A DNA stretch of 64,000 bases from Patescibacteria group bacterium. Lineage in GTDB: Bacteria; Patescibacteriota; Patescibacteriia; JAXHNJ01. Position 1 is the first letter of the stretch; each line of letters starts with the position of its first letter. Where the stretch lies: positions 130,579-194,578 of the forward strand of contig JAXHNJ010000001.1 of NCBI GenBank assembly GCA_034520665.1. Direction: 5' to 3'. Both the position numbers and the translations under genes were made by a program. Below the pieces are notes generated by a model that ran no database searches, was not told where the DNA came from, and saw only the letters and a list, made by a program, of their open reading frames with translations. Positions 18,424-58,477 of this stretch are shown here, one piece after another.

Positions 18424-18547
18424 AAGAATAAAAACAAGTCGAGATCGTCTTCGCCCTTTAATTTTCTTTTGACTTATTTCCTTGGTTCAAGATCAATTTC
18501 GGGCTTCGGCCGATAAAATCTTAATACTAAAATATTATTACATAGTG

Positions 18548-18640
18548 GGGTCGTCTAATGGTCCCGCACCCAATTCTCGTTTTACTCGAATGGGGACGGG
18601 ATAAATAGGAGGCCTGATTCTGGTTCAGGTAATCCTGGTC
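18548..18640 (+). pseudogene. Degenerate partial copy of tRNA-Gln (5' acceptor/D region plus anticodon arm) with a ~45-nt insertion in the D-loop region and no T-arm or 3' acceptor
   Basis: ggggtcgtctaatgg...aggcctgattctggttcaggtaat is identical to the matching parts of the downstream tRNA-Gln. It lacks ttcgaatcc and a 3' acceptor strand. Confidence 0.4.
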
Positions 18641-18761
18641 CGCCCGCCAAAAATTTCTCGATCCGGGGTCGTCTAATGGCAGGACGCCTGATTCTGGTTC
18701 AGGTAATCTTGGTTCGAATCCAAGCCCCGGAGAAATTTTTAGGCGGGTGAAAATCCTGGTC
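18631..18761. mobile_element. MITE-like element carrying tRNA-Gln: 10-bp direct repeats (aatcctggtc at 18631-18640 and 18752-18761) flank a 111-bp segment bounded by ~18-bp inverted repeats
   Basis: IR-L gcccgccaaaaatttctc (18642-18659) and IR-R gagaaatttttaggcggg (18732-18747) are reverse complements with 1-2 mismatches, and they extend the tRNA acceptor stem. Confidence 0.4.
18662..18732 (+). tRNA. tRNA-Gln (anticodon CUG)
   Basis: Cloverleaf: acceptor tccgggg/ccccgga, D-arm cgtc..gacg, anticodon stem cctga/tcagg with loop ttCTGgt, T-arm cttgg-ttcgaat-ccaag. U1:A72 plus G73 discriminator fit bacterial tRNA-Gln identity. CCA is not encoded. Confidence 0.85.
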
Positions 18762-19136
18762 TCCCAGTTTTTTATTTAGGTTCGGCGCTGAAAGGTCTAT
18801 CTTAGCCAAAAAAGCAGAACCAATCTTCTAAAGTTGATCTATTAAATTTGATTTGATAACCCTTCATAAACTAAAATGTGGATTTTTTGTATTTGACATC
18901 AAATTTATGATAATTTAAACTAATAGTATACATTAATGCTTACTATTAGTTTATATATATAAAAAACTTGATTTTGAAAATTTATAAGGCACACCAGCCA
19001 GGACATTTTATAGCAGCTCTTCAGAAAAAACTAGCAAAAGAAGATATAAATATTACTTTCTTGGGAATAAATAGAAGGGGGACAAAGAGCTCTCTGAGGA
19101 GATTAGATAATCTTTTGAAGAAAATATAAATATAGA

Positions 19137-19165
19137 GCCGTTGTTTTAAACGACGGCTTTTTTAT
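19137..19165 (+). terminator. Hairpin plus T-tract, intrinsic-terminator-like, 15 nt upstream of the DUF523 start
   Basis: agccgttgtttt-aa-acgacggct followed by tttttat. Confidence 0.45.
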
Positions 19166-19179
19166 CATATAATTTTGAT

Positions 19180-19614
19180 ATGAATAATAAATGCAAACCA
19201 AAATTAATAAGTGCCTGTCTTTTGGGTATTAAATGCCGGTGGGATGCAAAATTTAAACCTTGCCAAAAAGCAATTGAATTATTTAAACAAGGCCAGGTTA
19301 TTCCCGTATGCCCGGAACAATTAGGAGGTTTGCCTACTCCTAGAATTCCCCAGGAGATTCAAAAAGACGGCAGAGTATTAAATAAAGAAGGGAGAGAAGT
19401 AACGGAGGAATTTAAAAAGGGAGCTAGCGAAACCTTAAGAATAGCCAAATTATTAGGAGTGAAAGAATTCATTGGTAAGTCAAAAAGTCCTTCTTGTGGT
19501 TTTGGCAAGACTTATGATGGTACTTTTTCGGGTACTTTAGTAAAAGGTAACGGAGTTACAGCAGATCTTTTATCTAAAAATGGTATAAAAGTAATAACGG
19601 AAAAAAATTTATAA
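19180..19614 (+). CDS. DUF523 family protein (YbbK/TudS-like)
   Basis: ISACLLGIKCRWDAK...VIPVCPEQLGGLPTPR...SPSCG matches the DUF523 Cys pattern. Confidence 0.65.
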   Translation: MNNKCKPKLISACLLGIKCRWDAKFKPCQKAIELFKQGQVIPVCPEQLGGLPTPRIPQEIQKDGRVLNKEGREVTEEFKKGASETLRIAKLLGVKEFIGKSKSPSCGFGKTYDGTFSGTLVKGNGVTADLLSKNGIKVITEKNL

Positions 19615-19619
19615 GGAAA

Positions 19620-20107
19620 TCATTACTCCTGGTGTCTGGGGTCCTCTTGTACTTCTTTTCAGTTTAGTTATTTACGAACCTCTGAAAAATTACTTCGAAA
19701 ATCTTGCCAACAAATACTTCTTTGCCAGTATTTACAACTACCAGGCTACTCTGGAAAAACTGGCCCAGGAACTGACTCATTCTATTGACTTAGACCAAAT
19801 CATTGACTCCATTGTCAAAACTATTAGAGAAACCATGAAACTGGACCGGACTGGTGTTTTATTATTTGACCAAGAAACCTATAATTACCAGGTTAAGAGT
19901 AATATTGGCTTTTCCGTAGCCAATGGTATTTCTCTAGTTAGAAATAACTTCCTCACTAATTATTTATTAAAAAAAAGAAAACCAGTTATTTACCAAGAAC
20001 TGGAGTCTTTAAAAAGTAACGGCCATGGTGATCGCTCAGAGATTGGCAAGCTTAAGGCTAATATGAAAAAAATTGAAGCGGCTTTGTGTTTGCCTTTGGT
20101 TAAATAA
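19620..20107 (+). pseudogene. Duplicated internal fragment (~490 bp) of the sensor histidine kinase gene; copy of 28940..29427
   Basis: Nucleotide alignment is colinear with high identity by eye (roughly 85-90%). ORF 19835..20107 translates to MKLDRTGVLLFDQETYNYQVKSNIGFSVANGISLVRNNFLTNYLL..., nearly identical to residues of the 28150..30420 protein. Confidence 0.8.
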
Positions 20108-20157
20108 TAAATAGTTTAAAGAGTTTTATTTTAGAAAAAAATTATCCTTTTTACTTT

Positions 20158-20185
20158 TGTAAAAAGAGGCATTTTATGGTATAAT
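20158..20185 (+). promoter_or_regulatory. Sigma70-like promoter with extended -10 (TTGTAA, 16 nt spacer, tgGTATAAT) upstream of the first cassette
   Basis: Same ttatggtataat motif as the promoter at 12751. Located 43 nt before ORF 20228. Confidence 0.45.
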
Positions 20186-20227: not shown

Positions 20228-21613
20228 ATGGCTCAAGGGTTAAAAAATAAAAAAATATTAATACTTGGAGGCACAGGTTTGGTTGGTAAAAATACGGTTA
20301 CCGTTCTTTTAGATCAAAAAGTTAAAAATATTGGAGTGGTTGGCTTAAAAAATGATAAGAATTGGAAATTTATTGAAAAAATTGAAAGAGATAAAAAGGT
20401 AAAGATAAAGAAATATAAAAATAATCTATTGTGGCCGTCATGGTTTAGTCAATCTTCTTTTAAAAAAAATACTAAGCAAAGTAATGTCCAATTAAAAAAT
20501 TTTCTTGCTTCCGATATAAAAAAGGATGAGGTTAAAAAAGAACCTCTCTATAAAATTATCCTTGATTTTTGTCCTGACTATATTATTGACAGTATAAATA
20601 CTCCTACCCAATGTTCTTATGCCAAGTTTTCATCAAGTATTATAGAGGGTATAGGAATGGGTTCTCTTCTTCTGCTTCGATACTATAAGATTTTATATCA
20701 TCTACTAAGCTATGATTTTTGGAAAAAGGAAAGAAAAAAAATTAATATTTCACAATACATAAAAATTGGTACGACCGGCATCGGTGGTATGGGTTTAGAT
20801 ATTCCCTTTACACACGGCGAAGAAAAGCCGTCACTTTCTCTCTTAAAAAAAGTGGCCCTGGCCGGTTCACAGACAAATATTTTATTTGCCATGCGTAATA
20901 GTCACAGAATTGCCAATATACAAGAGATTATTCCGACAACCTCTGTTTTTCAACTTACCGACTTTAATACCAGTCATAAGGAAATTGACGGCGGTGAAAG
21001 TCAGGGATACGCACTTGAAGAATTTCGTTTATTAACAAATCAGAGTCAAATGGGTGTTATTGACGCCCATGAGCTGGCGGAAATTATCATAAAAGCGCTG
21101 CAAAAAGGAAAAAGTCCTTATAACACTCTTGAGGCTCTGGCCCAGTCAGGAGTTGCCTGTTCAGATAAATCATTAAAAATGCGTTCTCGCATCCTTGATT
21201 CTTGGTGGCAAAAACAAAATAAAAGCGCCAAAGTAAGCGTGGCGCACGGAAATCTCGGTCCAAAACGAACTCGCAAACTTTTATTTGAACTTTTTATTTT
21301 ACTTGATTATTACCGTGTGAACAGAAAAGATTTTTGGCGTCTTTCACCACGGAAAATTCAAAAGCAAATTAAAGACAAAATTTCAAAAAACTCTTCATTA
21401 AAAGAAGAAATAAGGTTAGCCGATATGCGAGTATTGACTTCACCTCCCAAAAAACCCTCTGATAAATATATTGATCTCTCTACTAAAAACATAACAAAAT
21501 GGCGGAAAGCACTGCAGTCATTGGGGTTGGAGAAGAAAGATATTCCTGCCCAGGCCGGAGATATACTCTCACAATTAATTAAAAAATATCATGAGCTTAA
21601 GCATATACCATAA
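20228..21613 (+). CDS. NAD(P)-binding Rossmann-fold protein of unknown function; first gene of cassette 1
   Basis: N-terminal KKILILGGTGLVGKNTV is a GxxGxxG dinucleotide-binding motif. A second Gly-rich motif is IGTTGIGGMGLD. The last ~62 aa are duplicated as a stand-alone ORF at 24502..24690. Confidence 0.5.
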   Translation: MAQGLKNKKILILGGTGLVGKNTVTVLLDQKVKNIGVVGLKNDKNWKFIEKIERDKKVKIKKYKNNLLWPSWFSQSSFKKNTKQSNVQLKNFLASDIKKDEVKKEPLYKIILDFCPDYIIDSINTPTQCSYAKFSSSIIEGIGMGSLLLLRYYKILYHLLSYDFWKKERKKINISQYIKIGTTGIGGMGLDIPFTHGEEKPSLSLLKKVALAGSQTNILFAMRNSHRIANIQEIIPTTSVFQLTDFNTSHKEIDGGESQGYALEEFRLLTNQSQMGVIDAHELAEIIIKALQKGKSPYNTLEALAQSGVACSDKSLKMRSRILDSWWQKQNKSAKVSVAHGNLGPKRTRKLLFELFILLDYYRVNRKDFWRLSPRKIQKQIKDKISKNSSLKEEIRLADMRVLTSPPKKPSDKYIDLSTKNITKWRKALQSLGLEKKDIPAQAGDILSQLIKKYHELKHIP

Positions 21614-21668
21614 AAGTAATTTTATACTATGGGATTAATTTATTAGCTTATTTTTTATTTTTATATTT

Positions 21669-23225
21669 ATGATTAAAAAAAGTGACATATTCAAATTAAT
21701 TTATAGAAACTCATATAAGGATTTTATCAACTTTTATAATTTGTCTTCAGATAAGTTTTTTAATTTTTTAGTTACTGAATCTCCAGAAAAAATTGAAGAT
21801 TTAGGGCAAAAAATGGCCTTGAAGTTATTTCGCAAAGCCTCAAAGGAAGTGCCATCTTACAATAAGTTTTTAAAAGATAAGGCCTTTAATACTAAAAACA
21901 TTATAACAAAAAAAGAATTTAGCTCTTTACCTATTACTACCAAAAAAAATTATCTCAAGAAGTATGATTTAAATGATTTTTGTTGGAGTGGCAGTTTCCA
22001 GCAGATGAATTTAATTTCAGTAAGTTCCGGATCTACAGGCGAACCATTTTTTTGGCCGAGAGGTTTAGGTCTGGAATATGAAACGACGCTCGAATACGAA
22101 ATTATTCTTAAAAACTTTTTTAAGGCAGATAAAAATAAGACTCTATTTATTGTCGGCTACGCTATGGGAATGTATGTTGCCGGTGTATTTACACTCAATA
22201 GCTTGATGAATTTAATAAAAAAAGGATATCCGCTAACGGCTGTAACTCCTGGTTCTGATAGAGATTCGATACTACGAATTATTAAAAATATTGGTAAATA
22301 TTTTGATCAAGTTATAATTTCAGCTTACCCAGCTGTGCTAAAAGATGTGATTGATAAAGGAGTAAAAGAGAATTTAGGATGGGAAAAATATAATATTAAA
22401 TTTATCTCTGGTGGAGAGGGTTTCAGCGAAGAATTCAGAAAATATATTTATAAAAGAATTGGGGTAAAAAACTATTATAAAAGTTCGATTAACACTTACG
22501 GTTCAGCTGACGCTGCGATTCTTGGCCATGAAACGCCTTTATCAATTTACATTAGAAAACTCGTCTCGGAAAATAAAGAACTACGTAAAGCTTTGTTTAA
22601 AGACGAAAGACTACCCTCATTACTTCAATATTACCCTCCATTTAAATATTTTGAGGAAATTGATGGAAATTTAATTTTCACTACATACGGCGGTATTCCA
22701 TTAGTCAGATATTCTATTGGGGATACTGGAGGTGTTATTTCTTTTAATAAAATGACTGAAACACTGAAAAACTTTAATATTAATATTATAAAAGAAATGA
22801 CAAAAAATAAATGTGGAGATGTTATTACTCGACTACCTTTTGTTTACTTATTTGGCAGAGCAGATAATACAAAAATATTTTACGGGGCAAATATTTATCC
22901 GGAACATATCAAAAAATGTCTTGAACAGAAAGATATCATGCATATAGTTACTGGAAAATACTTTATTGACATCCTACTTGACAGAAATCATAATCAGACT
23001 TTTTATGTGGCTGTTGAATTAGCTCACGGTATAAAAATAAACAAGAAATTAAAAAATAAAATAGCTAATACTATACATCATAATTTGCTTAAAATTAATC
23101 GTGAATATGAATATCTTCTGCGTACAGTCGGTCATCGTATTTTTCCCTCGGTAGAATTATTTACCTATGGTGACCCAAAATATTTTTCATCAAAAATAAA
23201 GCCAGAATATGTCAAAAAAGAATAA
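21669..23225 (+). CDS. Adenylate-forming enzyme, PaaK / coenzyme F390 synthetase / CapK-like (ANL superfamily); cassette 1
   Basis: ISVSSGSTGEPFFWPR (AMP-binding P-loop-like motif), ...YGSADAAILGHETP..., ...VRYSIGDTGGV.... About 45% identical to the paralog at 25518..27086. Confidence 0.65.
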   Translation: MIKKSDIFKLIYRNSYKDFINFYNLSSDKFFNFLVTESPEKIEDLGQKMALKLFRKASKEVPSYNKFLKDKAFNTKNIITKKEFSSLPITTKKNYLKKYDLNDFCWSGSFQQMNLISVSSGSTGEPFFWPRGLGLEYETTLEYEIILKNFFKADKNKTLFIVGYAMGMYVAGVFTLNSLMNLIKKGYPLTAVTPGSDRDSILRIIKNIGKYFDQVIISAYPAVLKDVIDKGVKENLGWEKYNIKFISGGEGFSEEFRKYIYKRIGVKNYYKSSINTYGSADAAILGHETPLSIYIRKLVSENKELRKALFKDERLPSLLQYYPPFKYFEEIDGNLIFTTYGGIPLVRYSIGDTGGVISFNKMTETLKNFNINIIKEMTKNKCGDVITRLPFVYLFGRADNTKIFYGANIYPEHIKKCLEQKDIMHIVTGKYFIDILLDRNHNQTFYVAVELAHGIKINKKLKNKIANTIHHNLLKINREYEYLLRTVGHRIFPSVELFTYGDPKYFSSKIKPEYVKKE

Positions 23226-24372
23226 TTTCTACAAACCACTATTACTTAACCCAAGAAGTAAAAATAACTTAGGAAAAATAAATAAGTTTTTAAAGACAGC
23301 AAATTTTATAGTGGATGAAATTGATAATCAAATATCTGAACTTTTTTATATCCGTCATCCAAAATCAATATTTAGAAAAGTAAAAAAGTCTGAACTGTCA
23401 AATTTTAGAAAATCATTTTATGAACAACAAGATAAAAAATTATTTGGTACTTGGGTATATTACCCCTGGAATAATCATCTTGTCCATTTTTTACCGGAGA
23501 GTTTACATACAGAAATTAGAACCTCCCGTAATAGGAATCTAATAACCAAAAAGGAACAAGAAAAATTTTATAATGCATCAATAGCAATAGCTGGTTTGAG
23601 CGTAGGTAATAGTTCGGTCGCTAATCTTCTGTATTCAGGAGGGCCGAAGAATATGCACTTAGCGGATTACGACCATTTAGCGGCTTCAAACATAAATAGA
23701 ATTAGAACTACTTTTATTAATGTGGGAAAGAAAAAAACTGATCTGAGTGCACAAGAAGTTTACGAGGTTAACCCATATAGTAATTTAAAATTATTCAGAA
23801 ATGGCCTCAATATAAAAAATCTAGATAATTTTCTATTAAAACCAAGATCAGTTGATGTTTTAATAGAAGAAATGGATAATTTATACTTAAAAGTACAAAT
23901 AAGACTTTTAGCTCGCAAACATCGCATCCCAGTTATTATGGCAGCAGATAATGGAGATAATATTATTGTAGACATAGAAAGGTTTGATTTAGAACCGAAT
24001 CGACCGCTTTTACACGGTGATGTACCAGAGAAAGAATTACTAGCAATTACGCCGGAAACGCCAAAAATTGAAGCGGCAAGAATTATTTCTCGTTGGGTGC
24101 ATCCCGAAAATGTGGTACCAAGAATGCAAGGTTCTCTTTTGGAAATTGGAAAGTCTCTTTATACCTGGCCACAACTCGGGAACGCCGCTTTTTTAGCTGG
24201 ATGTGCAATGTCCTATTTAGCCAGAAAAATAATTTTGGAAGAATCTCTTAAGTCAGGCAAATTCAACCTTTCTCTAGACCACGTTCTAAATCCAGAATAT
24301 CAATCAAAAGATTTTCTTTTAAAGAAAAAAAAATCAACAAATGAATTTAAAAAGGTGTTAAATATACCATAA
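23209..24372 (+). CDS. ThiF/MoeB/E1-like (ubiquitin-activating-enzyme superfamily) protein with a ~110-aa conserved N-terminal extension; cassette 1
   Basis: IAIAGLSVGNSSVANLL (Rossmann GxGxxG-like) ...DYDHLAASNINRI is the E1-like nucleotide-binding core. The N-terminal W.YPWN..LVH.L...IRTSRNR.LIT..EQE is shared with the paralog. Overlaps the upstream gene by 17 nt. Confidence 0.65.
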   Translation: MSKKNNFYKPLLLNPRSKNNLGKINKFLKTANFIVDEIDNQISELFYIRHPKSIFRKVKKSELSNFRKSFYEQQDKKLFGTWVYYPWNNHLVHFLPESLHTEIRTSRNRNLITKKEQEKFYNASIAIAGLSVGNSSVANLLYSGGPKNMHLADYDHLAASNINRIRTTFINVGKKKTDLSAQEVYEVNPYSNLKLFRNGLNIKNLDNFLLKPRSVDVLIEEMDNLYLKVQIRLLARKHRIPVIMAADNGDNIIVDIERFDLEPNRPLLHGDVPEKELLAITPETPKIEAARIISRWVHPENVVPRMQGSLLEIGKSLYTWPQLGNAAFLAGCAMSYLARKIILEESLKSGKFNLSLDHVLNPEYQSKDFLLKKKKSTNEFKKVLNIP

Positions 24373-24423
24373 TGGACCTATATCTTCTTATTATTATAAG
24401 TCTCTTTAATTTCTGGTTAGGAA

Positions 24424-24690
24424 TAGCGGAAAATTCAAAAGCAAATTAAAGACAAAATTTCAAAAAACCCTTCATTAAAAGAAGAAATAAGGTTAGCCGA
24501 TATGCGAGTATTGACTTCACCTCCCAAAAAACCCTCTGATAAATATATTGATCTCTCTACTAAAAACATAGCAAAATGGCGGAAAGCACTGCAGTCATTG
24601 GGGTTGGAGAAGAAAGATATTCCTGCCCAGGCCGGAGATATACTCTCACAATTAATTAAAAAATATCATGAGCTTCGAACCATTCCTTAA
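24424..24690 (+). pseudogene. Duplicated 3' fragment (~265 bp) of gene 20228..21613 (copy of 21353..21613); contains stand-alone ORF 24502..24690
   Basis: Near-identical nucleotide sequence. The ORF translates to MRVLTSPPKKPSDKYIDLSTKNIAKWRKALQSLGLEKKDIPAQAGDILSQLIKKYHELRTIP, against ...MRVLTSPPKKPSDKYIDLSTKNITKW...HELKHIP at the C-terminus of the 461-aa protein. Confidence 0.75.
24502..24690 (+). CDS. Stand-alone 62-aa ORF corresponding to the C-terminal module of the cassette-1 Rossmann protein
   Basis: Own ATG, with a possible weak RBS (aagg, about 10 nt upstream). Intact frame despite being a duplicated fragment. It sits between the two cassettes. Confidence 0.4.
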   Translation: MRVLTSPPKKPSDKYIDLSTKNIAKWRKALQSLGLEKKDIPAQAGDILSQLIKKYHELRTIP

Positions 24691-24727
24691 AATTTATTAA
24701 TTTTAATAAGCAATTAATCGAATAATT

Positions 24728-25531
24728 ATGGAATACAAAATCAAAAAAGACTGGTGGAAAAGCCAAGGTGGTTATTTTAATAATATCTACCTTGAGGGAG
24801 ATAATTCATCGGAAGGATTTTTAAATTCACCTCTTGATTTAGACAATAGAACAAAAAAAGAAAGCGAGGGAGTGCAAAGACTCTGCTGTTTAAATAAAGG
24901 CGACAAGATTTTAGATTGCCCTTCAGGATATGGAAGACATTCATTAACTCTTGCGGCTATGGGCTTTGATGTGGTGGGAGCGGATATTAATGAGCAATTT
25001 TTAGCAGTTGCTAATAAAGGTTTACAGAAAGCAAAATTACCCAATATACGCTTTATAAAGAAAGATATGCGGGAATTGGATTTTAAAAATGAATTTAACG
25101 CGGTTATTAATATGTTTTATTCTTTTGGTTTTTTTGAAGATGAAACCGATAACGTAAAAGCACTCAAAAATTTTTATGCCGTATTGAAACCGGGTGGTAA
25201 ATTTTTAATGCATACGCATGTTACTGTACCGAAATTCATGAAGGGATTAATAAAAACTCATGAAATCAGAACCTTAAAAACAGAAAAAAAACTTGAATTA
25301 TTTAGACAGTATAATAAAGCAATTAAGCGTGAAGAAGGTCAATGGTTTTTATTGGATGGAAAAATAAAAAAGGAAGCCAGCGCTCCATACTCCATGAGAA
25401 TTTATACTGACAAAGAATTTCAGACCTTATGTAAAAATGTTGGCTTTACGAAAGTTAAAATATATGGTGACTGGGATGGTACTGAATATAAAGATAAGTC
25501 TGAACTAATGATTGTAGTTGCGACAAAATAA
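24728..25531 (+). CDS. Class I SAM-dependent methyltransferase; first gene of cassette 2
   Basis: ILDCPSGYGRHSLTLAAMG (motif I), DVVGADIN (motif II acidic), FNAVINMFYSFGFF, LKPGGKF (motif III). Confidence 0.8.
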   Translation: MEYKIKKDWWKSQGGYFNNIYLEGDNSSEGFLNSPLDLDNRTKKESEGVQRLCCLNKGDKILDCPSGYGRHSLTLAAMGFDVVGADINEQFLAVANKGLQKAKLPNIRFIKKDMRELDFKNEFNAVINMFYSFGFFEDETDNVKALKNFYAVLKPGGKFLMHTHVTVPKFMKGLIKTHEIRTLKTEKKLELFRQYNKAIKREEGQWFLLDGKIKKEASAPYSMRIYTDKEFQTLCKNVGFTKVKIYGDWDGTEYKDKSELMIVVATK

Positions 25532-27086
25532 TATGATTTTAGATAAAAATAAAATTTATAAAAATTTGTTTTCTCTAAAAGACTGGGGTACTTATTACGG
25601 AAGCGACATAAATCGTATTTCTAAAAGCCTTGTCCAGGCTAATCCCGAAATCTTTGAGGAAGAAAGTAAAAATCGCGCTTTAACATTTTTTCGTCGGGTA
25701 AGCTCTCAGGTTCCAGCCTATAAAGATTTTTTGAAAAAGAATAATATTGATCCTGAAAAAATAAAAACCGCCAGTGATTTAAAGCAAGTTCCATGGATCG
25801 ATAAAGAGAATTATTTAAAGCAATATCCGATGGAATCTCTTTGTTGGCATGGGAAAATGACCGCCCCTATTATTTCGGCTAGTTCTGGTTCTACAGGTAA
25901 TCCATTTTTCTGGCCACGGTCTCCTGAAATAGAAAGAGAAACCACTTTTATCTATGAGCTTTTTTTAAAGGAGATATTTGAGATTAACAAATATAAAACA
26001 CTTCTAATAAATGGTTTTTCACTTGGTATTTACATTGGTGGAACATTCACTCTTAACTGTTCGATGAGGATCTCGCAGAAGGCATATCCATTGACAATAA
26101 TTACTCCGGGAATCAATAAAAATGAGATATTAAATTCTATTAAGAAACTACATCGGTATTTTGATCAGATAATAATAAGTGGCTACCCTCCTTTTATTAG
26201 AGATATTATTGATGATGGTCAAAAAATGGGTATCAACTGGAAAAAAATTAGATTAAAATTTTTTTTCGCCTCGGAATCTTTAAGTGAAGAATTTAGATCT
26301 TATATTTATAACAAAGTGGGTATTAGCGATAAGAGTTACTACTATTCATCAATGAATCTTTATGGTACTGCTGACGCAGCTATTATGGGTCATGAAACTC
26401 CCTTAAGTACATTTGTGAGAAGACTTTTTAGCAATAACAAAGATAAATGTAAAGAATATTTTGGAACAGATTATGTGCCGTCTCTTAATCAATATTATCC
26501 AATGTTTAAATATATAGAAATTGATAATAATGAAATTATTCTTACATCTTTTAACACAGAGATTCCTTTAGTACGTTACAATATTCATGATCGAGGAAAA
26601 GTGTTAACTTATCATAAGATAATTAAGCTCATAGAGTCATTTGGTTACACAGAAAAAAAGGCAGAAAAAATTACCGGAAGATGTTTTTGGCACTTACCTT
26701 ATGTCTACTTATTTGGCAGAAGTGATTTTACAGTAACTGTTTATGGTCTTAATATTTATCCAGAAAATATTAAATTAGCTCTAGAATCAAAAGAATTAAT
26801 TAGTTTAACCACGGGGAAATTTGTGTTAGAAACAGCAAATAGAGCCAGTGATCAGAGTCAATACTTATTAATTCACATAGAAATTTTGAAAGATATTCCA
26901 ATTAATAAAGAATTAGAGAAAAAGTTCCGAGAAATAATTGTTAAATCTTTAAGAAAAGTCAATTTGGAATACAATCATTTATATCAGGCAATTAAGGAAC
27001 GAGCTATTCCTAAAATTGACTTGAGAAAACAAGGAGACAAAACTTATTTCGCGCCGGCAATTAAACAAAAATGGGTAAAAAATTAA
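25518..27086 (+). CDS. Adenylate-forming enzyme, PaaK/CoF390-synthetase-like (paralog of 21669..23225); cassette 2
   Basis: ISASSGSTGNPFFWPR, YGTADAAIMGHETP, VRYNIHDRGKV. Overlaps the upstream MTase gene by 14 nt. Confidence 0.65.
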   Translation: MRQNNMILDKNKIYKNLFSLKDWGTYYGSDINRISKSLVQANPEIFEEESKNRALTFFRRVSSQVPAYKDFLKKNNIDPEKIKTASDLKQVPWIDKENYLKQYPMESLCWHGKMTAPIISASSGSTGNPFFWPRSPEIERETTFIYELFLKEIFEINKYKTLLINGFSLGIYIGGTFTLNCSMRISQKAYPLTIITPGINKNEILNSIKKLHRYFDQIIISGYPPFIRDIIDDGQKMGINWKKIRLKFFFASESLSEEFRSYIYNKVGISDKSYYYSSMNLYGTADAAIMGHETPLSTFVRRLFSNNKDKCKEYFGTDYVPSLNQYYPMFKYIEIDNNEIILTSFNTEIPLVRYNIHDRGKVLTYHKIIKLIESFGYTEKKAEKITGRCFWHLPYVYLFGRSDFTVTVYGLNIYPENIKLALESKELISLTTGKFVLETANRASDQSQYLLIHIEILKDIPINKELEKKFREIIVKSLRKVNLEYNHLYQAIKERAIPKIDLRKQGDKTYFAPAIKQKWVKN

Positions 27087-28153
27087 TCAACAATAAAATA
27101 CAAGATAAATTCAAGGTTTTTAGTTATCAAAAATCTCGTAATATAATTGAAAAAATCAGCAAAATAAAGGGTGTTAAAATAATTGATGAGTTTGATGAGC
27201 AGATAATTGAATTGTATAAATTTTTTAATCCGGGGGTATCTTTTAATCAAGCTCAGTATAATTTATTCAAGAAAAAATATTTTTCTAAAAGATCGTCAAA
27301 AGAGAAGGGAAGATGGATCTGGTATCCATGGAACAAAAGTCTGGTTCACCTTTTGTCGCCGAAGGATTTTCAGAGAATTCGTACTTCAAGAAATAGATAT
27401 CTCATTACTGATCAGGAGCAAGAAGAATATCGAAAAGCATGTGTGGCTATTGCCGGGGTTTCTGTAGGGTCAAACATTGCGATAACACTGCGTTTACAAG
27501 GAGGCGCCCAACATCTCAAACTTTCAGATTTTGATATATTAGAACTTTCAAATACAAATCGGATAACGTTAGGAGTGCCTTATCTTGGAGAGGAGAAAAT
27601 TGATATTGTTAAACAAAAAATATTAGAAATTGATCCATACACAAAGCTATCTTTATTTCCAAAGGGTTTAAATTCAAATAATATAAGACAATTTTGTCAG
27701 GGATCAGACATTGTTTTTGATGAGGTGGACAATTTACAAATTAAAGTACTTTTACGAAAATATGCCCGTAAATTTAAAAAACCGCTAATTATGCTTACTG
27801 ATAATGATGACGGAGTGTTGGTTGATTATTACCCATATCATAAGAAAATAGATGTCCCATTATTTCACGGTTTACCTGATAATAAAGTACTCAATTTGAT
27901 TAATGCTAAAAAACCTCCAACAAAATCAGAAATGGTTAAGCTAAGTTCTCAAGTAGTTGGTAAGCAAAATATTTCTCCGAGAATGATGAAATCTCTTAAA
28001 GCGGTAGGCAAGACACTTGTATCATGGCCTCAATTAGGTACTGCGGCTATTTTTTCCGGTGTTATTGGTGCTTATATGACCCGGATGATTATTAATGGGT
28101 ATGATTTTCGCTTTCGCCGGCGATTGATTCGTTTAAATGATCAACTTATATGA
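27071..28153 (+). CDS. ThiF/MoeB/E1-like protein (paralog of 23209..24372); cassette 2
   Basis: VAIAGVSVGSNIAITLRLQGG...LSDFDILELSNTNRI is a classic ThiF-family motif. The N-terminal W.YPWN.SLVHLL...IRTSRNRYLIT extension is conserved. Overlaps its neighbours by 16 nt and 4 nt. Confidence 0.7.
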   Translation: MGKKLINNKIQDKFKVFSYQKSRNIIEKISKIKGVKIIDEFDEQIIELYKFFNPGVSFNQAQYNLFKKKYFSKRSSKEKGRWIWYPWNKSLVHLLSPKDFQRIRTSRNRYLITDQEQEEYRKACVAIAGVSVGSNIAITLRLQGGAQHLKLSDFDILELSNTNRITLGVPYLGEEKIDIVKQKILEIDPYTKLSLFPKGLNSNNIRQFCQGSDIVFDEVDNLQIKVLLRKYARKFKKPLIMLTDNDDGVLVDYYPYHKKIDVPLFHGLPDNKVLNLINAKKPPTKSEMVKLSSQVVGKQNISPRMMKSLKAVGKTLVSWPQLGTAAIFSGVIGAYMTRMIINGYDFRFRRRLIRLNDQLI

Positions 28154-30420
28154 ATATATTATTCACTATTTTCACAGCAACATTAGGCATTATTATAGGT
28201 TATCTCGTTATTAAACAAAACCCACGAAACGCCATGCATTTGGCATTTATGGTATTTTGTGTTTCTTTAGCATTTTGGGCAGTTGCCAATTATTTTTCAA
28301 TTTCAACTCAAGAAGTTTCAAACATTCTTTTTTGGATGAGAGCTGTAATGATTTTCGCTGTAATTATTTGTATTTCATTTTTTTTATTTATTCATACATT
28401 TCCTAAGTCGAAGATTAATCTTCAAAAGAAATATCTCTTTCCTTTGTTATTAGCTGGAGTTCTAACTTGTATTGTGTCCTTTTCGCCTCTACTTTTTTCT
28501 GAAGTAACATTTGACGAACAAGGAAATAGATCACCAGTAGTTAAACCCGGTATGTTATTATTTCTTATTGTAGCCGTTGGTTCCTTACTTTCAGCATTTA
28601 TTATTCTAATTAAAAAAGTTAAACGTTCCACTGGTATTACTAAGATGCAGCTGCGATTTATTCTTGCTGGTACTTTTATTATGTTTTTTTGCATCCTTTT
28701 ATTTAATTTGGTTTTACCAGTAATATTTAAGATTTCCACTTTTGTTAATGCGGCTCCATTTTTTATATTACCTTTTATTCTAGCAGTTTTTTATGCTATC
28801 ACCCGCCATCGTCTCATGGACATCCGCCTGGTGGTCAAGCGCACTGCCATCTATGCTTCCACCGTTATTTTCCTCCTTCTCCTCGCCCTCGGTCTTTATT
28901 GGCTGGAAATGACTTATTTTAAGGAAATCATTCCTCCGGGTGTTTGGGGGCCAATTGTCCTTTTGCTCGGCTTAATCCTCTTTGAGCCATTAAAGAATTA
29001 CCTAGAAAGAATTGCCAACAAATACTTCTTTGCCAGTATTTACAACTACCAAGCTACTCTGGAAAAACTGGCCCAGGAACTGACTTATTCTATTGATTTA
29101 GACCAAATTATTGATTCTATTGTTAAAACCATCCGGGATACCATGAAACTGGACCGGACTGGTGTTTTATTATTTGACCAAGAAACCCATAATTACCAGG
29201 TGAAAAGTAATATTGGCTTTTCCGTGGCTAACGGTATTTCTCTAGTCAGAAACAACTTTCTTACCAATTACCTTTTAGAAAAAAGAAAACCAGTTATTTA
29301 CCAGGAACTGGAGTCTTTAAAAAGTAATCAGGGTGAAAAGTCGGAAATTGGTAAATTAAAGGCTAATATGAAAAGAATTGAAGCGGCCTTGTGTCTGCCT
29401 TTGATTATTAAAAATAAATTGATCGGTATCATTGTTTTGGGCGAGAAAATATCTAAGGACGCCTACACTAAAGAAGATCTACAGCTTCTTGATTCTCTAA
29501 CCAACCAAGCCTCTATCGCTTTAGAAAACGCCCGGTTGTACCAGCAGGTGCAGGACTTTACCAAAACTCTTCAGCAGAAAGTGGATGAGCAAACCCGGGA
29601 TATTAAGCAAAAGAATGTTGATCTTAAAAAAATGGCCAAAGAAGTAAAAGAGAAAAATGTCCACTTGGAGAAAGTTCTTAAAATTCAGTCGGAGTTTTTG
29701 GATATTTCTTCGCATCAACTCCGGACCCCGGTCTCGGTCATTAAAGGAGTATCTTCAATGCTGGCTCAGGGTGAGATGGAGAAGTTGCCTCCAGAAAAAA
29801 AGAAAGAATTCTACCAAAGTGTTTATGATAAAAGCGTGAAATTGGAGAAAATTATCAATGATATCTTAAGGGCTTCGGAGTTTGACGCGGTTAAATTTAG
29901 TTTAGACGATAAAACAGCTCTAATTTCACCGGAAGAAGTGATTGAGGAAGCGGTTAAAGAAGCAGAGTTGGAAGCGAAACAGAGAAAAATAAATTTAATC
30001 TGGCAAAAACCGGTTTCTCCCTTGCCGAAAATTTATGCGAAAAAAAAGTATTTAGTGGAAGCGATAGGTAATCTTTTGTCGAACGCCCTGAAATATACCC
30101 CTTCTCTTGTCCAAGTTAAGGAAGCCCGGAGTAAAAGAAGAAAAAAAGGCGTAGTTATGGTTGAGGCGGAAAAAGAGAAAGATAATATTCTGATTAAGGT
30201 TTCTGACAACGGTATTGGTATTCCCAAGAAAGAAATAAGTAAGCTTTTTACTAAGTTTGCTCGGGCCGAAAATGCTACGGATATGTACACAGACGGCAGC
30301 GGGCTGGGGCTTTTTATTGTTAAAGAAATTGTAAGTGGCCACCAGGGCCAGGTCTGGCTCGAAAGCAAGTTGGGCAAAGGCACCACTTTTTACATTAGTT
30401 TGCCGATTGCTAAAAAATAA
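28150..30420 (+). CDS. Membrane sensor histidine kinase (N-terminal polytopic sensor domain, GAF-like domain, HisKA, HATPase_c)
   Basis: About 7 N-terminal TM helices. H-box is SSHQLRTPVSV. The ATPase domain has DNGIGIPKKEISKLFTKF and GSGLGLFIVKEIV (N, G1/G2 boxes). The start overlaps the E1-like gene (ATGA). Confidence 0.85.
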   Translation: MNILFTIFTATLGIIIGYLVIKQNPRNAMHLAFMVFCVSLAFWAVANYFSISTQEVSNILFWMRAVMIFAVIICISFFLFIHTFPKSKINLQKKYLFPLLLAGVLTCIVSFSPLLFSEVTFDEQGNRSPVVKPGMLLFLIVAVGSLLSAFIILIKKVKRSTGITKMQLRFILAGTFIMFFCILLFNLVLPVIFKISTFVNAAPFFILPFILAVFYAITRHRLMDIRLVVKRTAIYASTVIFLLLLALGLYWLEMTYFKEIIPPGVWGPIVLLLGLILFEPLKNYLERIANKYFFASIYNYQATLEKLAQELTYSIDLDQIIDSIVKTIRDTMKLDRTGVLLFDQETHNYQVKSNIGFSVANGISLVRNNFLTNYLLEKRKPVIYQELESLKSNQGEKSEIGKLKANMKRIEAALCLPLIIKNKLIGIIVLGEKISKDAYTKEDLQLLDSLTNQASIALENARLYQQVQDFTKTLQQKVDEQTRDIKQKNVDLKKMAKEVKEKNVHLEKVLKIQSEFLDISSHQLRTPVSVIKGVSSMLAQGEMEKLPPEKKKEFYQSVYDKSVKLEKIINDILRASEFDAVKFSLDDKTALISPEEVIEEAVKEAELEAKQRKINLIWQKPVSPLPKIYAKKKYLVEAIGNLLSNALKYTPSLVQVKEARSKRRKKGVVMVEAEKEKDNILIKVSDNGIGIPKKEISKLFTKFARAENATDMYTDGSGLGLFIVKEIVSGHQGQVWLESKLGKGTTFYISLPIAKK

Positions 30421-30468: not shown

Positions 30469-30852
30469 ATGGGAAAAAAACCTAAAATCTTACTAATTGA
30501 AGATGACCGAGACCAAATCAAGATGTATCAGTTTAAGTTTGAGAAGGAGGGCTTTATTTTTCTGGCTGGCCGAAGTGGAGAAGAGGGGATTAAAATAGCC
30601 AAAGAACAAAATCCGGATCTTATTCTTCTTGATTTGGTTCTAATTAACGAAAACGGAATAAAAGTTTTAGAAAAATTGAAAAAGGATAAAGCCCTGAAAG
30701 ACATCCCGGTTATAATGCTGACCAATCTGGCTAAAAATTCCATGAAAGAAAAAAGCAAAGAATCCGGCGCCACAGATTTTTTAGTTAAAACCCAGATTGA
30801 TCCCTCTGAATTGATAAAAAAAGTTAAACAGATAATTAGTGAAAGTGGCTAA
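30469..30852 (+). CDS. Stand-alone response regulator receiver domain protein (CheY-like)
   Basis: KILLIEDDRD...DLILLDLVL...PVIMLTNL. Conserved Asp pocket and phospho-acceptor Asp (LLDL). 49 nt downstream of the kinase gene. Confidence 0.85.
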   Translation: MGKKPKILLIEDDRDQIKMYQFKFEKEGFIFLAGRSGEEGIKIAKEQNPDLILLDLVLINENGIKVLEKLKKDKALKDIPVIMLTNLAKNSMKEKSKESGATDFLVKTQIDPSELIKKVKQIISESG

Positions 30853-35571: not shown

Positions 35572-35590
35572 TTCGAAAAAAAATTAAAAA

Positions 35591-35627
35591 ATATCCCTGC
35601 GTAGGTGCGGGTCGCGACCCGCACCTA
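35591..35627. repeat. GC-rich REP-like palindrome (tatccctgcGTAGGTGCGGGTCGCGACCCGCACCTAC), inverted copy of the element at 42757..42798
   Basis: Near-perfect 12-bp stem. The same unit recurs at 42757 and at 43183 (the latter inside a RAYT gene). Confidence 0.75.
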
Positions 35628-35641
35628 CCTAAGATAAAAAC

Positions 35642-35800
35642 AAAACCATAAACTCTGGCAAAGCCATAACTGGATAGAAAATATTTTTTCTATAAAATTT
35701 TTAAAACAAAAACTTAATTACATCCACAATAACCCTGTCCGGGCCAAACTGGTTAAAAACCCCGAAGATTATAAATATTCAGGTTATTATAATTATTATT
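35642..35800 (+). pseudogene. Truncated 3' fragment of an IS200/RAYT-like transposase gene (homologous to 45222..45380 of gene 44812..45414)
   Basis: ctggcaaagccataactggatagaaaatattttttctataaaatttttaaaacaaaaacttaattacatccacaataaccctgtccgggccaaactggtt... matches the 3' end of the intact gene almost base for base. The start is missing. Confidence 0.7.
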
Positions 35801-35869
35801 TAAATGATTCTTTAATAAAGACAGATTAATAATTTTAGAGAATTTAGCTTTTTGAAAATTATTTTAGTA

Positions 35870-38720: not shown

Positions 38721-40421
38721 ATGAGAAAAATTAATAGAAAAAATGGCTTTACCAAAGCCTTAAATCTACTTACTTTAGGGGCCCTAGTGGTCTATGCTTC
38801 CTTTTTGGGAGTGTTTTTTATGCCTCAGGAAGTTGATTCCTCAGCCAGTTATAACAGTCTTTTAGTTTTGGAAAACAAGTATAATGAGGATAGTGTAAAT
38901 CAGTGGGAATTTATTGATGATGATGGTATTAAGGGATACCTGCTTTATAATTCCTATGGGCCAGAGTTTGAGTATAGATTTGAGGCTAACGGTTTAAATG
39001 ATCAGGACTATGTTCTTATTTATTATGCCGATCCTTATCCGGGCAGTCCGGCTCTTATGATAGATGAAGGCACTGCTTCTGGTGGAAATTTGGTATTACA
39101 AGGAAGTAATAACACCGGAGATTTACCATATGATAGTGATCCCAATAAATATAATCTTGTTCCAGATAACTATGTACACCGAACTGGAGCTAAAATTTGG
39201 TTAATTCCAGCTTCTGATTATGATGCTGATAATGAAAAAACAACTATTAACTGGCATCCACATTCAGAGACAGACCTTTTATTTGAAACCGATTTAATTC
39301 ATTACACTAAAACAACAGATTTGAACAAAGAATTGATTTTAGAAAACAAAGATAGCAACTGGGATATTGTTCCCGATACTACTCAAGCCAGACTGTACTA
39401 TAATGATTATGCTGAAAAGTTTAATTATAAACTAAAGGCAAGTGGTTTAGAAATTAATCAGACTTACGCTTTGATTTATTATGCAGATCAACAGGAAAGA
39501 TTTGATAATTGGGGAGGGGATAATCCCGGTGCATTAATAACAGAAGTAATTGCAAATGAAAAAGGTAATATTACTGAAACAGGACATAAAGATTTGGGAA
39601 TGAATCTTCCAGAGGATTCAGACTGGAATAATAGTGAAGACGCTGATTATTGTAATTATCATAATGGTTATGATGATTATGACCATTGTAATGGAGCAAA
39701 GATTTGGTTAGTGCCTTCAGATGATTATAATGAGACAGACAACCAACTTACTTCTTGGAATCCGGATAATTACTTATTTGAAACAGATTTGATAACTTAT
39801 ACTAAAGCTACAGAAGATTGTCCTAATTTAAAAGAACTTTTTGAAGAGGCATATCAATCTGAAGAAGGCGATGATAGTGGGAAATATGAAGCAGTTTTAG
39901 ATTTTGATGATGATGGTAAAATTAGTTTAAGTGATTTTGGAGTTTTAGGTAATAATTTTGATAATTCTGAATGGTGTGGGGATATATTAAAAGAGTTAGA
40001 GCCAGAAAAGGGATTATCAGATGATTCAAATTTATCACCAATTTCAGAAGTTTCTAGTACTGAAGAATTAGAAAAAAATAATGATGTAAATGATAAAATA
40101 GATAGTAGTCATTCAGTTGAAATAAAACCAGTTATAAAAGAAAAGTTAGCCTCTAAAGAAAACACTCTTACTATTACCGGAAATCCTACTAATAATCTTC
40201 AAGAAGAAGAAAAAACAGCTGATCAAGTAGTTACTAGTAATGATAATTCAGTCACAAAAAATGAATCAACTGATAAAACAGTTAGTCAGACGGATGGTGA
40301 AGTGCAAGGAGCTACTGATAATAAAATTGATAATAAAGTGATTGAAACTGAAAATGAATTGCCCCAAGCTGGTACTAATTTTTTGACTTGGCTGGTTGAT
40401 TTGTTTTCATTTGGTATTTAA
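38721..40421 (+). CDS. Large secreted/surface protein with an N-terminal signal anchor, dockerin-like Ca-binding repeat, Asp/Asn-rich repeats and a C-terminal LPQAG-hydrophobic sorting-signal-like tail
   Basis: N-terminus MRKINRKNGFTKALNLLTLGALVVYASFLGVFF. DFDDDGKISLSDFGVLGNNF is a dockerin type I-like motif. C-terminus ELPQAGTNFLTWLVDLFSFGI. Confidence 0.55.
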   Translation: MRKINRKNGFTKALNLLTLGALVVYASFLGVFFMPQEVDSSASYNSLLVLENKYNEDSVNQWEFIDDDGIKGYLLYNSYGPEFEYRFEANGLNDQDYVLIYYADPYPGSPALMIDEGTASGGNLVLQGSNNTGDLPYDSDPNKYNLVPDNYVHRTGAKIWLIPASDYDADNEKTTINWHPHSETDLLFETDLIHYTKTTDLNKELILENKDSNWDIVPDTTQARLYYNDYAEKFNYKLKASGLEINQTYALIYYADQQERFDNWGGDNPGALITEVIANEKGNITETGHKDLGMNLPEDSDWNNSEDADYCNYHNGYDDYDHCNGAKIWLVPSDDYNETDNQLTSWNPDNYLFETDLITYTKATEDCPNLKELFEEAYQSEEGDDSGKYEAVLDFDDDGKISLSDFGVLGNNFDNSEWCGDILKELEPEKGLSDDSNLSPISEVSSTEELEKNNDVNDKIDSSHSVEIKPVIKEKLASKENTLTITGNPTNNLQEEEKTADQVVTSNDNSVTKNESTDKTVSQTDGEVQGATDNKIDNKVIETENELPQAGTNFLTWLVDLFSFGI

Positions 40422-42756: not shown

Positions 42757-42960
42757 GTAGGTGCGGGTCGCGACCCGCACCTACGCAGGGATATTTATTA
42801 ATTTTTGTATCGCGACCCGCACCTACGGGATTGATTTTGTAATTTAAAAAATCATCGCGATCCCCGGCGGCTCACGAGCCGCCGCTACGGGGATTAATTA
42901 TATTATTTAAAAATTATCGTAACCCGCCGGTGTCAGTCGTGACCGATGCCAACAGTTTTA
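42757..42960. repeat. Array of GC-rich REP-like palindromes (74-bp unit gtaggtgcgggtcgcgacccgcacctacgcagggatatttattaatttttgtatcgcgacccgcacctacggg plus two further hairpins)
   Basis: The unit is repeated at 43183..43257 and partly at 35591..35627. Additional hairpins are ccccggcggctcacgagccgccg and cggtgtcagtcgtgaccg. Confidence 0.7.
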
Positions 42961-42964
42961 TAAA

Positions 42965-58440: not shown

Positions 58441-58477
58441 ATTTAAATAAATAATATTAAAATTAATTTAAATTATC

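What the first reader, a model, noticed from the sequence alone, without database searches (positions are those of the whole stretch)
19620..20107. A ~490-bp internal piece of the histidine-kinase gene is duplicated 8.8 kb upstream, bracketing the cassette region
19620-20107 aligns colinearly with 28940-29427 (the GAF-like region of the kinase) at high nucleotide identity, while the surrounding paralogous genes are only about 45% identical at protein level. The fragment copy is therefore recent relative to the cassette duplication. Two direct repeats of ~490 bp flanking an ~8.8-kb block is the geometry expected for a tandem duplication/deletion intermediate, or for a block that can be amplified or excised by homologous recombination.
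Basis: seen in the sequence. Interest (0 to 1): 0.6.

Follow-up and report, generated by a model that had tools for sequence, protein, structure and literature searches.

The report
Eroded remnant of a second sensor-kinase gene
The repeated 500-bp piece is real, but it is the worn-down leftover of a second, once-working sensor-kinase-type gene, one of three gene stumps left when two neighbouring operons in a Patescibacteria genome were trimmed by deletions; it is an ordinary kind of genomic scar and not a fresh copy or an amplification device.

Summary
The repeat is real: 19609-20112 matches 28917-29419 inside the 7TM-GAF histidine-kinase gene. Identity is 84% nt and 88% aa, not uniformly high.

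The copy is in frame with kinase residues 257-419. It keeps all 27 universally conserved residues and differs mostly at synonymous sites (dS 0.70, dN/dS 0.10). It retains ancestral states the resident kinase has lost. It is about as far from the kinase as a homolog from another organism (L026).

So it diverged as part of a working gene and was truncated only recently. Its left edge lies at the stop codon of the upstream gene. Its right edge lies at the operon's conserved promoter.

The "cassettes" are two old operon types that occur separately in relatives. Two more stumps show they once stood complete in tandem:
- the first 18 codons of the lost type-I kinase (24372-24426);
- the last 88 codons of the second operon's first gene (24427-24718).

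The second stump's 249-nt core is 99.2% identical to its partner. That pair, not the kinase pair, is the plausible substrate for excision by recombination.

Verdict: a gene remnant in a deletion-trimmed locus; modest interest.

The parts
19609..20112 (+). Kinase-gene remnant (HKf). In frame with resident kinase aa 257-419; frame open 19598-20107; no start codon before ATG 19835; truncated at both ends.
19835..20107 (+). 90-aa ORF inside the remnant, annotated in the source MAG as hypothetical protein U5L76_00805. It would encode only part of a GAF domain, so it is probably an annotation artefact.
28917..29419 (+). Matching segment inside the resident kinase gene (last TM helix, linker, first ~100 of 133 GAF positions).
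28150..30420 (+). Resident histidine kinase, 756 aa: HisKA_7TM, GAF, HisKA, HATPase_c.
19180..19614 (+). Complete 2-thiouracil-desulfurase-family (PF04463) gene. Its TAA stop is the left boundary of the remnant.
20124..20185 (+). Native operon promoter region: -35 TTGTAA and extended -10 TGGTATAAT. Conserved upstream of the first operon gene in relatives. Forms the right boundary of the remnant.
20228..21613 (+). Gene B, 461 aa: Rossmann fold plus PF27054 domain. First gene of the type-I operon.
21669..24372 (+). C1 (PaaK-like adenylate-forming enzyme, 518 aa) and D1 (ThiF-like / Rv1355c N-half, 387 aa). Orthologs of L025 C/D at 75% and 73%.
24372..24426 (+). 5' stump of the lost type-I kinase. 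The ATG overlaps D1's stop (TAATG) as in L025. It encodes MDLYLLIIISLFNFWLGIA, matching the L025 kinase N-terminus at 11/19 aa.
24427..24718 (+). Bf: 3' stump (last 88 codons plus about 26 nt) of the second operon's own B gene. The core 24427-24675 is 99.2% identical to 21350-21598. It has its own diverged tail (...ELRTIP*) 37 nt before MT.
21350..21639 (+). Partner of Bf: the 3' end of the full gene B.
24728..28153 (+). MT (267 aa), C2 (522 aa) and D2 (360 aa) of the type-II operon. Orthologs of L023 MT/C/D at 73%, 74% and 63%.
30469..30852 (+). Response regulator (receiver domain only) downstream of the kinase.

Best explanation
The 500-bp element is a non-functional remnant, truncated at both ends, of a second gene of the same clade as the resident 7TM-GAF kinase. 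That gene was either a full kinase or a kinase-less 7TM-GAF 'sensor-only' copy, and it once lay just upstream of the operon promoter.

It evolved under purifying selection for most of the time since it split from the resident kinase. It was then cut down recently by deletions that stopped at the nearest selected features: the stop codon of the desulfurase gene on the left and the operon promoter on the right.

It belongs to a wider erosion of the locus. Two complete operons of different, anciently diverged types once stood in tandem: B-C1-D1-kinase1-RR and B2-MT-C2-D2-kinase-RR. One deletion joined codon ~19 of kinase1 to codon 374 of B2, leaving two further stumps. The B2 stump was afterwards homogenised with B, or exchanged with it very recently.

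Shown: homology, frame, boundaries, substitution pattern, orthology of the two operon types, and the three stumps. Inferred: that the ancestral gene lay in situ, its full extent, the order of events, and gene conversion as the cause of the 99% B/Bf core.
For: - In-frame homology to kinase aa 257-419 with sharp ends.
- 47.5 synonymous vs 24.5 non-synonymous differences: dS 0.70, dN/dS 0.10. omega=1 is rejected at P 3e-16 and omega=0.55 at P 8e-9. Only 1-9% of neutral simulations keep the frame open.
- All 27 columns invariant in the kinase plus 19 outgroups are kept. Amino-acid changes split 12 fragment-derived, 6 kinase-derived, 3 ambiguous. The 3-nt indel is a deletion in the resident kinase (L026 and L027 also have the Gly).
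- A rough model puts the neutral phase at about 5% of the branch, roughly 8 substitutions.
- No HisKA or HATPase, and an incomplete GAF. No start codon before 19835.
- The right edge abuts a promoter conserved in relatives.
- Relatives carry kinase-less 7TM(-GAF) genes directly upstream of B (L023, L025). L026 carries a kinase-clade copy that ends right after GAF.
- Two-operon ancestry: the orthology matrix, the kinase1 5' stump, and Bf with a native tail and native spacing to MT.
Against: - No sister genome shows the intact ancestral gene. The next full-length kinase is only 54% identical.
- The fragment has no stop or frameshift, so a current function cannot be strictly excluded.
- It belongs to the kinase clade, not to the clade of the upstream sensor-only genes of L023/L025 (19-26% identity). 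The positional analogy with those genes is therefore only an analogy.
- An origin from a related organism by transfer would give the same dN/dS.
- The B/Bf core identity needs an extra event (conversion or exchange) that is inferred, not shown.
- L026 is a 1.9-kb contig and could be incomplete or chimeric.
Confidence: 0.7

Rival explanations
1. A recent copy of an internal piece of the resident kinase, made by or poised for tandem duplication/deletion, so that the 8.8-kb block can be amplified or excised by homologous recombination between the two copies.
For: Direct orientation and colinearity. Identical runs of 48, 40 and 33 nt exist and could support rare RecA-type exchange.
Against: 84% identity with dS 0.70 and dN/dS 0.10. 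The fragment keeps ancestral states lost by the kinase. L026 from another organism is about equally close. Sequence flanking the copies is unrelated, so there is no duplication junction. The recombinant would lack promoter, start codon and 7TM domain and would delete both cassettes.
Confidence: 0.05
2. A xenologous scrap. A piece of the orthologous kinase (or sensor-only copy) of a related Patescibacteria species was taken up and inserted by illegitimate recombination between the desulfurase gene and the promoter. It has been dead since arrival.
For: The low dN/dS is equally expected for divergence between orthologs. The three-way near-trichotomy with L026 and the cluster of sites shared with L026 at nt 38-88 of the fragment fit this.
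Against: Landing by chance within 9 kb of the homologous kinase, exactly at its operon's promoter, is unlikely. Composition is flat. No mobile-element signatures lie at the junctions. Informative sites favour fragment+kinase slightly over fragment+L026 (17 vs 15; 22 vs 16) and dS is lowest to the resident kinase.
Confidence: 0.12
3. A functional element. Either a silent donor that exchanges sensor-domain sequence with the kinase by gene conversion, or a small expressed protein (U5L76_00805, or a frameshift fusion to the desulfurase gene through the A7 run at its stop).
For: Open frame of 165 codons. Weak mosaic signal (block heterogeneity P 0.02, longest identical run P 0.03, run of L026-type sites P 0.03). 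Gene conversion plausibly acts in this locus (B/Bf). The ORF is annotated in the MAG.
Against: There is a single copy. Differences are conservative and mostly synonymous, the opposite of a diversity cassette. The max-chi2 breakpoint test is not significant (P 0.10). The GAF is truncated at profile position ~96/133. No canonical start before 19835. No RNA structure signal (z -1.0) and no Rfam hit.
Confidence: 0.08
4. An assembly artefact of the metagenome-assembled genome, in which strain variants were stitched together.
For: The source is a MAG. The locus contains a 99%-identical 249-nt repeat that could confuse an assembler.
Against: Copies at 84% identity do not collapse or mis-join in assembly graphs. 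All four flanks of the fragment/kinase pair are unique and the junctions lie at the ends of the homology, not within it. The kinase1 stump/Bf junction has a coherent evolutionary explanation.
Confidence: 0.03

Closest known systems
Truncated gene remnants (relic pseudogenes) left by deletional erosion of redundant paralogs in bacterial genomes
   Same: Homologous to a functional gene. Lacks start, promoter and essential domains. Ends coincide with neighbouring selected features. Accompanied by other stumps in the same locus.
   Different: No stop codons or frameshifts yet. Its divergence from the functional copy bears the mark of purifying selection, so inactivation is recent relative to the age of the copy.
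Kinase-less 7TM(-GAF) 'sensor-only' paralogs encoded next to these operons in related Patescibacteria (L023 544 aa, L025 478 aa, L026)
   Same: Position immediately upstream of gene B / the operon promoter. Derived from the sensor half of a 7TM-GAF kinase. L026 shows that a kinase-clade copy ending right after GAF exists in a close relative.
   Different: The window's element lacks the 7TM region and the end of the GAF. It is only 19-26% identical to the L023/L025 proteins. Whether its parent ever lacked the kinase core is unknown.
Silent partial-gene cassettes used for gene conversion (Neisseria pilS/pilE type; recalled from general knowledge)
   Same: Promoter-less partial copy in direct orientation near the expressed gene. 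Weak mosaic signal.
   Different: Single copy. No hypervariable segments. dN/dS 0.10. No known recombination-initiating element.
Direct-repeat-bounded segments that are amplified or deleted by RecA-dependent unequal exchange (general knowledge)
   Same: Two direct repeats bracket a block of genes.
   Different: The kinase pair is only 84% identical. The inner B/Bf pair (249 nt, 99.2%) fits this class much better.

Membership tests
Relic pseudogene (gene remnant) | Significant homology to a functional gene | tested here: met
   blastn E 1e-160, 84% nt; 88% aa in frame
Relic pseudogene (gene remnant) | Truncated: lacks start, own promoter and essential domains | tested here: met
   Sharp ends at kinase aa 257 and 419. 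No start before 19835. No HisKA or HATPase, GAF incomplete. Promoter scan shows nothing convincing upstream.
Relic pseudogene (gene remnant) | Signs of neutral decay (stops, frameshifts, dN/dS near 1) | tested here: not met
   Frame open over 165 codons and dN/dS 0.10. Explained by a recent truncation: neutral phase about 5% of the branch, and the frame survives 8 random hits in 56% of simulations.
Relic pseudogene (gene remnant) | Not expressed as a functional product | not testable with these tools
   Needs transcript or proteome data. The 90-aa ORF is annotated but would encode a partial GAF.
Recent tandem duplication / amplification intermediate | Direct repeats in the same orientation flanking the unit | tested here: met
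Recent tandem duplication / amplification intermediate | Repeats (nearly) identical | tested here: not met
   84.4% identity, dS 0.70. By contrast, the B/Bf core is 99.2%.
Recent tandem duplication / amplification intermediate | A duplication junction, with homology continuing into the unit | tested here: not met
   Flanks are unrelated on both sides of both copies.
Recent tandem duplication / amplification intermediate | Alternative junctions or copy-number variation in reads | not testable with these tools
   No reads or assembly graph available.
Silent-cassette gene-conversion system | Promoter-less partial copies of the expressed gene | tested here: met
Silent-cassette gene-conversion system | Several copies carrying diversified variable segments (elevated non-synonymous change) | tested here: not met
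   One copy in the window. dN/dS 0.10 with conservative changes only.
Silent-cassette gene-conversion system | Mosaic exchange tracts between donor and expressed gene | tested here: inconclusive
   P 0.02-0.03 for clustering and runs; P 0.10 for max-chi2.
Kinase-less 7TM-GAF sensor paralog upstream of the operon | 7TM region and complete GAF, no kinase core | tested here: not met
   Only the last TM helix and about 96/133 of the GAF remain.
Kinase-less 7TM-GAF sensor paralog upstream of the operon | Located directly upstream of gene B / the operon promoter | tested here: met
   Window. Relatives: L023 and L025.
Kinase-less 7TM-GAF sensor paralog upstream of the operon | Sequence membership in the same clade as the L023/L025 upstream genes | tested here: not met
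   19-26% identity to those proteins, 88% to the resident kinase. Only L026 offers a kinase-clade precedent.

The most novel reading that the evidence does not exclude
Sensor-only copies (7TM-GAF without the kinase core) are spun off repeatedly from the operon's kinase in these Patescibacteria. They are kept under selection beside the operon, possibly as partners or decoys of the kinase. They exchange sequence with the kinase by gene conversion before being lost. On this reading the window's fragment is a dying example and L026 a living one, which makes this a birth-and-death cycle of sensor modules and not a one-off scar.
Probability: 0.15. Interest if true: 0.5.

Novelty: new member of a known kind. 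Interest (0 to 1): 0.27.

Why it matters
Mostly as a correction and a worked example. The piece is not an amplification device but a gene stump.

The public annotation of a 90-aa 'hypothetical protein' (U5L76_00805) is probably spurious.

The locus gives an unusually legible record of how a reduced Patescibacteria genome trims redundant operons. It holds three stumps, each ending at a selected boundary.

It also shows that two distinct operon types exist across relatives. Each combines a PaaK-like enzyme, a ThiF-like enzyme, a PF27054 reductase-like protein (plus a methyltransferase in one type), a 7TM-GAF kinase and a response regulator. Kinase-less sensor copies often sit beside them, which may be worth a separate look.

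The inner B/Bf repeat predicts a simple, testable excision of C1-D1.

Tried and rejected
- Exact-sequence look-ups of the window's kinase and gene B found no contig.
- The species-representative genome scan returned only generic kinase-core hits of 21-32% identity.
- Hypothesis that the fragment is the remnant of an L023/L025-type upstream sensor gene: rejected, 19-26% identity vs 88% to the kinase.
- Search for further relics of kinase, RR or sensor genes in the gaps with relatives' proteins: none besides the three reported.
- Involvement of the window's IS200-like Y1 transposases or REP-like palindromes: the palindromes occur only at 35604, 42760 and 43186, none near the locus.
- Foreign-island signal: GC and skew are flat across 16-33 kb.
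- Structured RNA: z-score -1.0. Rfam gave only the tRNA plus sub-threshold noise.
- Simple tandem-duplication and Campbell-type models for B/Bf: rejected. Homology is limited to about 290 nt, and the 99% core with a diverged tail needs a mosaic.
- Literature search for comparable cases in Patescibacteria found nothing relevant.
- Pfam on the possible orphan peptide at about 18.95-19.13 kb gave no hit.
- Synteny of L026's downstream gene with the window or other loci: none.

Full report
**1. Observation**

The repeat is real. MAFFT, the repeat finder and blastn all align 19609-20112 with 28917-29419 (E 1e-160), colinear and in direct orientation. The start-to-start offset is 9308 and there is one 3-nt indel.

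Identity is 84.4% overall and ranges from 73 to 95% per 60 nt. The downstream copy lies inside a 756-aa histidine kinase (28150-30420) with the architecture HisKA_7TM, GAF, HisKA, HATPase_c. The neighbouring paralog pairs are 42.5% (C1/C2) and 38.9% (D1/D2) identical.

**2. Anatomy of the fragment**

The upstream copy is in frame with kinase residues 257-419 (88% aa identity). That span is the last TM helix, the linker and about 96 of 133 GAF profile positions.

- The frame is open from 19598 to 20107, but there is no ATG, GTG or TTG before 19835.
- On the left, homology begins at the TAA stop codon of a complete 2-thiouracil-desulfurase-family gene (19180-19614).
- On the right, homology ends at about 20103-20112.
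- About 10 nt further on begins a stretch (20124-20185) that is 79% identical to the region upstream of the first operon gene in L027. It carries a -35 TTGTAA and an extended -10 inside the motif TTTTATGGTATAAT. That motif is shared by W, L020 and L016, with near-matches in L015, L023 and L027.

The fragment therefore fills exactly the space between a gene end and the operon's native promoter. No other kinase-like sequence is present in the window, so it is not part of a second intact kinase.

**3. The copy is not recent and did not decay from today's kinase**

- Of 72 nucleotide differences, 47.5 are synonymous and 24.5 non-synonymous (Nei-Gojobori): dS 0.70, dN 0.067, dN/dS 0.10.
- Neutral evolution of both lineages is rejected (P 3e-16). 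So is the case in which only the fragment lineage was neutral since the split (expected omega about 0.55, P 8e-9).
- Random AT-biased mutation at the observed level leaves the frame open in only 1-9% of simulations.
- Polarised with 19 outgroup kinases, 12 amino-acid changes are fragment-derived, 6 are kinase-derived and 3 are ambiguous. All 27 universally invariant columns are retained, and the changes are conservative.
- The 3-nt indel is a Gly-codon deletion in the resident kinase, not an insertion in the fragment. L026 and L027 also have the Gly.
- A rough two-phase model puts the unconstrained phase of the fragment at about 0.016 substitutions per site. That is about 5% of its branch, or roughly 8 substitutions, and it is compatible with a still-open frame (56% of simulations).

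The divergence was therefore acquired while the sequence was part of a working gene, and the truncation is comparatively recent.

**4. Relatives**

The window comes from an NCBI Patescibacteria MAG (contig 455,760 bp, tags U5L76_*). The next full-length kinase is only 54% identical. No closer relative of the fragment exists in the protein collection.

Genomic contexts of relatives show a conserved operon in two types:

| Operon type | Gene order | Seen in |
|---|---|---|
| Type I | B-C-D-kinase-RR | L024, L025 |
| Type II | B-MT-C-D-kinase | L023 |

MT-C-kinase-RR variants also occur in L017-L022.

The identity matrix assigns the window's genes as follows:

| Window genes | Closest relative | aa identity |
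|---|---|---|
| B, C1, D1 | L025 | 64%, 75%, 73% |
| MT, C2, D2, kinase | L023 | 73%, 74%, 63%, 51% |

The 'cassette duplication' is thus an old paralogy that predates these organisms. It is not a duplication in this genome.

C is a distant PaaK-like adenylate-forming enzyme. D matches the ThiF-like N-terminal half of the Rv1355c family. B carries PF27054.

**5. Two more stumps**

*First stump.* The 54 nt between D1's stop and the next repeat (24372-24426) start with an ATG that overlaps D1's stop as TAATG, exactly as in L025. They encode MDLYLLIIISLFNFWLGIA. This matches the N-terminus of the L025-type kinase at 11/19 residues (BLOSUM62 score 55, the single best of 16,112 background 19-mers) and at 37/57 nt (no shuffle of 20,000 reaches it).

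*Second stump.* Directly after it, 24427-24718 repeats the last 88 codons plus about 26 nt of gene B (21350-21639).

- The first 249 nt differ at only 2 positions (99.2%).
- The last five codons and the downstream sequence are strongly diverged.
- Both copies end in a valid family C-terminus (...ELKHIP* and ...ELRTIP*). Each keeps the spacing to its next gene seen in the matching relative.

The simplest reading (inference) is that two complete operons once stood in tandem. A single deletion joined codon ~19 of the type-I kinase to codon 374 of the type-II operon's own B. The B stump's core was later homogenised with B, or exchanged very recently, up to a breakpoint near 21598/24675.

**6. Origin of the kinase fragment**

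In L023 and L025, gene B is preceded by kinase-less 7TM or 7TM-GAF genes. The fragment is only 19-26% identical to those proteins, against 88% to the resident kinase and about 60% to the L015/L016 kinases. It therefore belongs to the kinase clade.

The metagenome scan found L026, a 1.9-kb contig from another organism. Its kinase-clade sequence (equivalent to aa ~240-471) ends sharply right after the GAF domain. About 30 further codons and a stop follow, then an unrelated FeeM/autoinducer-synthase-like gene. Its only frame break is a one-base difference in an A-run.

Pairwise dS values:

| Pair | dS |
|---|---|
| fragment - kinase | 0.70 |
| fragment - L026 | 0.98 |
| kinase - L026 | 1.36 |

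All three pairs are 87-88% identical in protein. With L027 as outgroup, informative sites split as follows:

| Grouping | Sites |
|---|---|
| fragment + kinase | 17 |
| fragment + L026 | 15 |
| kinase + L026 | 7 |

The L026-type sites cluster at nt 38-88 of the fragment (run test P 0.03, max-chi2 P 0.10). Difference density along the fragment is also uneven (P 0.02-0.03).

So the split between fragment and kinase is about as old as a species-level divergence. A kinase-less kinase-clade copy exists in a relative, and a mosaic history is suggested but not established. This segment is also unusually conserved. L027's kinase is 78-83% identical here but 53% identical overall.

**7. Mechanism and recombination potential**

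I find no sign that the fragment does anything now.

- It lacks a start codon and essential domains.
- It has no RNA-structure signal (z -1.0) and no Rfam match.
- It is a single copy.

As a recombination substrate the fragment/kinase pair is poor. The longest identical runs are 48, 40 and 33 nt. The product would be a promoter-less kinase without its 7TM domain, with both cassettes lost.

The B/Bf pair has identical runs of 104, 101 and 42 nt. Recombination there would excise C1-D1 (3,077 bp) and leave an intact 461-aa B, ending ELRTIP*, 37 nt before MT. That is the L023-type operon. Neither case can be tested without reads.

**8. Rivals**

- A xenologous scrap would give the same dN/dS. However, it requires a chance landing at the homologous operon's promoter, and there is no compositional or mobile-element signal.
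- A silent conversion donor is contradicted by the conservative, mostly synonymous differences.
- Misassembly is unlikely at 84% identity with unique flanks.

**9. Verdict**

This is a real repeat with a mistaken reading. It is a recently truncated remnant of a second kinase-clade gene, and one of three stumps in a locus where two old operon types were fused by deletion. Gene remnants are a known kind of feature, so this is a new member of that kind and of modest interest.

The more interesting open thread is whether kinase-less sensor copies are repeatedly born from, and exchange sequence with, the operon's kinase.

Noticed in passing
window 21350-21639 and 24427-24718: Second direct repeat: the 3' end of gene B is repeated after D1. 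The 249-nt core is 99.2% identical and is followed by a diverged tail. Recombination between the copies would excise C1-D1 (3,077 bp) and restore an L023-type operon.
   Followed up: yes
window 24372-24426: The 18-19 codon 5' stump of a lost type-I kinase, overlapping D1's stop codon as in L025. It marks a deletion junction with the B stump.
   Followed up: yes
window 18547-18650 (next to tRNA-Gln 18662-18732): Degenerate second copy of tRNA-Gln: the 5' part and the anticodon-to-T-arm part (92% to the real gene) are separated by about 45 nt of inserted sequence. ARAGORN and Rfam do not call it.
   Followed up: partly
window ~18950-19160: An open frame ending ...HQPGHFIAALQKKLAKEDINITFLGINRRGTKSSLRRLDNLLKKI* sits just before a strong terminator (19134-19160). 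It looks like the orphaned 3' end of another gene but has no Pfam hit. A 76-nt imperfect palindrome lies at 18898-18972.
   Followed up: partly
window 35579-35830, 42757-43519, 44812-45414, 58090-59257: Three IS200-like Y1 transposase genes (42965-43519 minus strand, 44812-45414, 58478-59014). A 3' fragment copy lies at 35632-35830 (91% to 45211-45371). GC-rich REP-like palindromes GGTGCGGGTCGCGACCCGCACC lie at 35604, 42760 and 43186. 96%-identical repeats flank the third transposase gene.
   Followed up: partly
window 38721-40421 and 40719-42683: Two adjacent large paralogous genes. The second has DUF11, dockerin-like and CARDB hits. They share a 73%-identical 310-nt stretch and are probably surface proteins.
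   Followed up: no
window 20157-20185; L016 ~7330, L020 ~7410, L015 ~430: A near-identical extended -10 promoter motif, TTTTATGGTATAAT, precedes the first gene of this operon family in several Patescibacteria that are otherwise only about 50% identical in protein.
   Followed up: partly
L026 1-1867: A kinase-clade 7TM?-GAF copy without a kinase core, in a related organism. It ends right after GAF and is followed by a FeeM/autoinducer-synthase-like N-acyl amino acid synthase gene.
   Followed up: partly
L023 131-3560; L025 7004-9786: Relatives carry one to three kinase-less 7TM or 7TM-GAF genes directly upstream of gene B. These are distant paralogs (20-35% identity) of the operon's kinase.
   Followed up: partly
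window 19601-19614: An A7 run lies just before the desulfurase gene's stop codon. A +1 shift there would read into the fragment's frame. There is no evidence that this happens.
   Followed up: no
L015 and L016 (GCA_964594455.1): One related MAG carries two separate C-D-kinase-RR modules on different contigs, one of them next to a tyrosine integrase. In L017 and L020 the modules sit near serine recombinases and ParB-methylase genes, which hints that these operons lie in variable regions.
   Followed up: no
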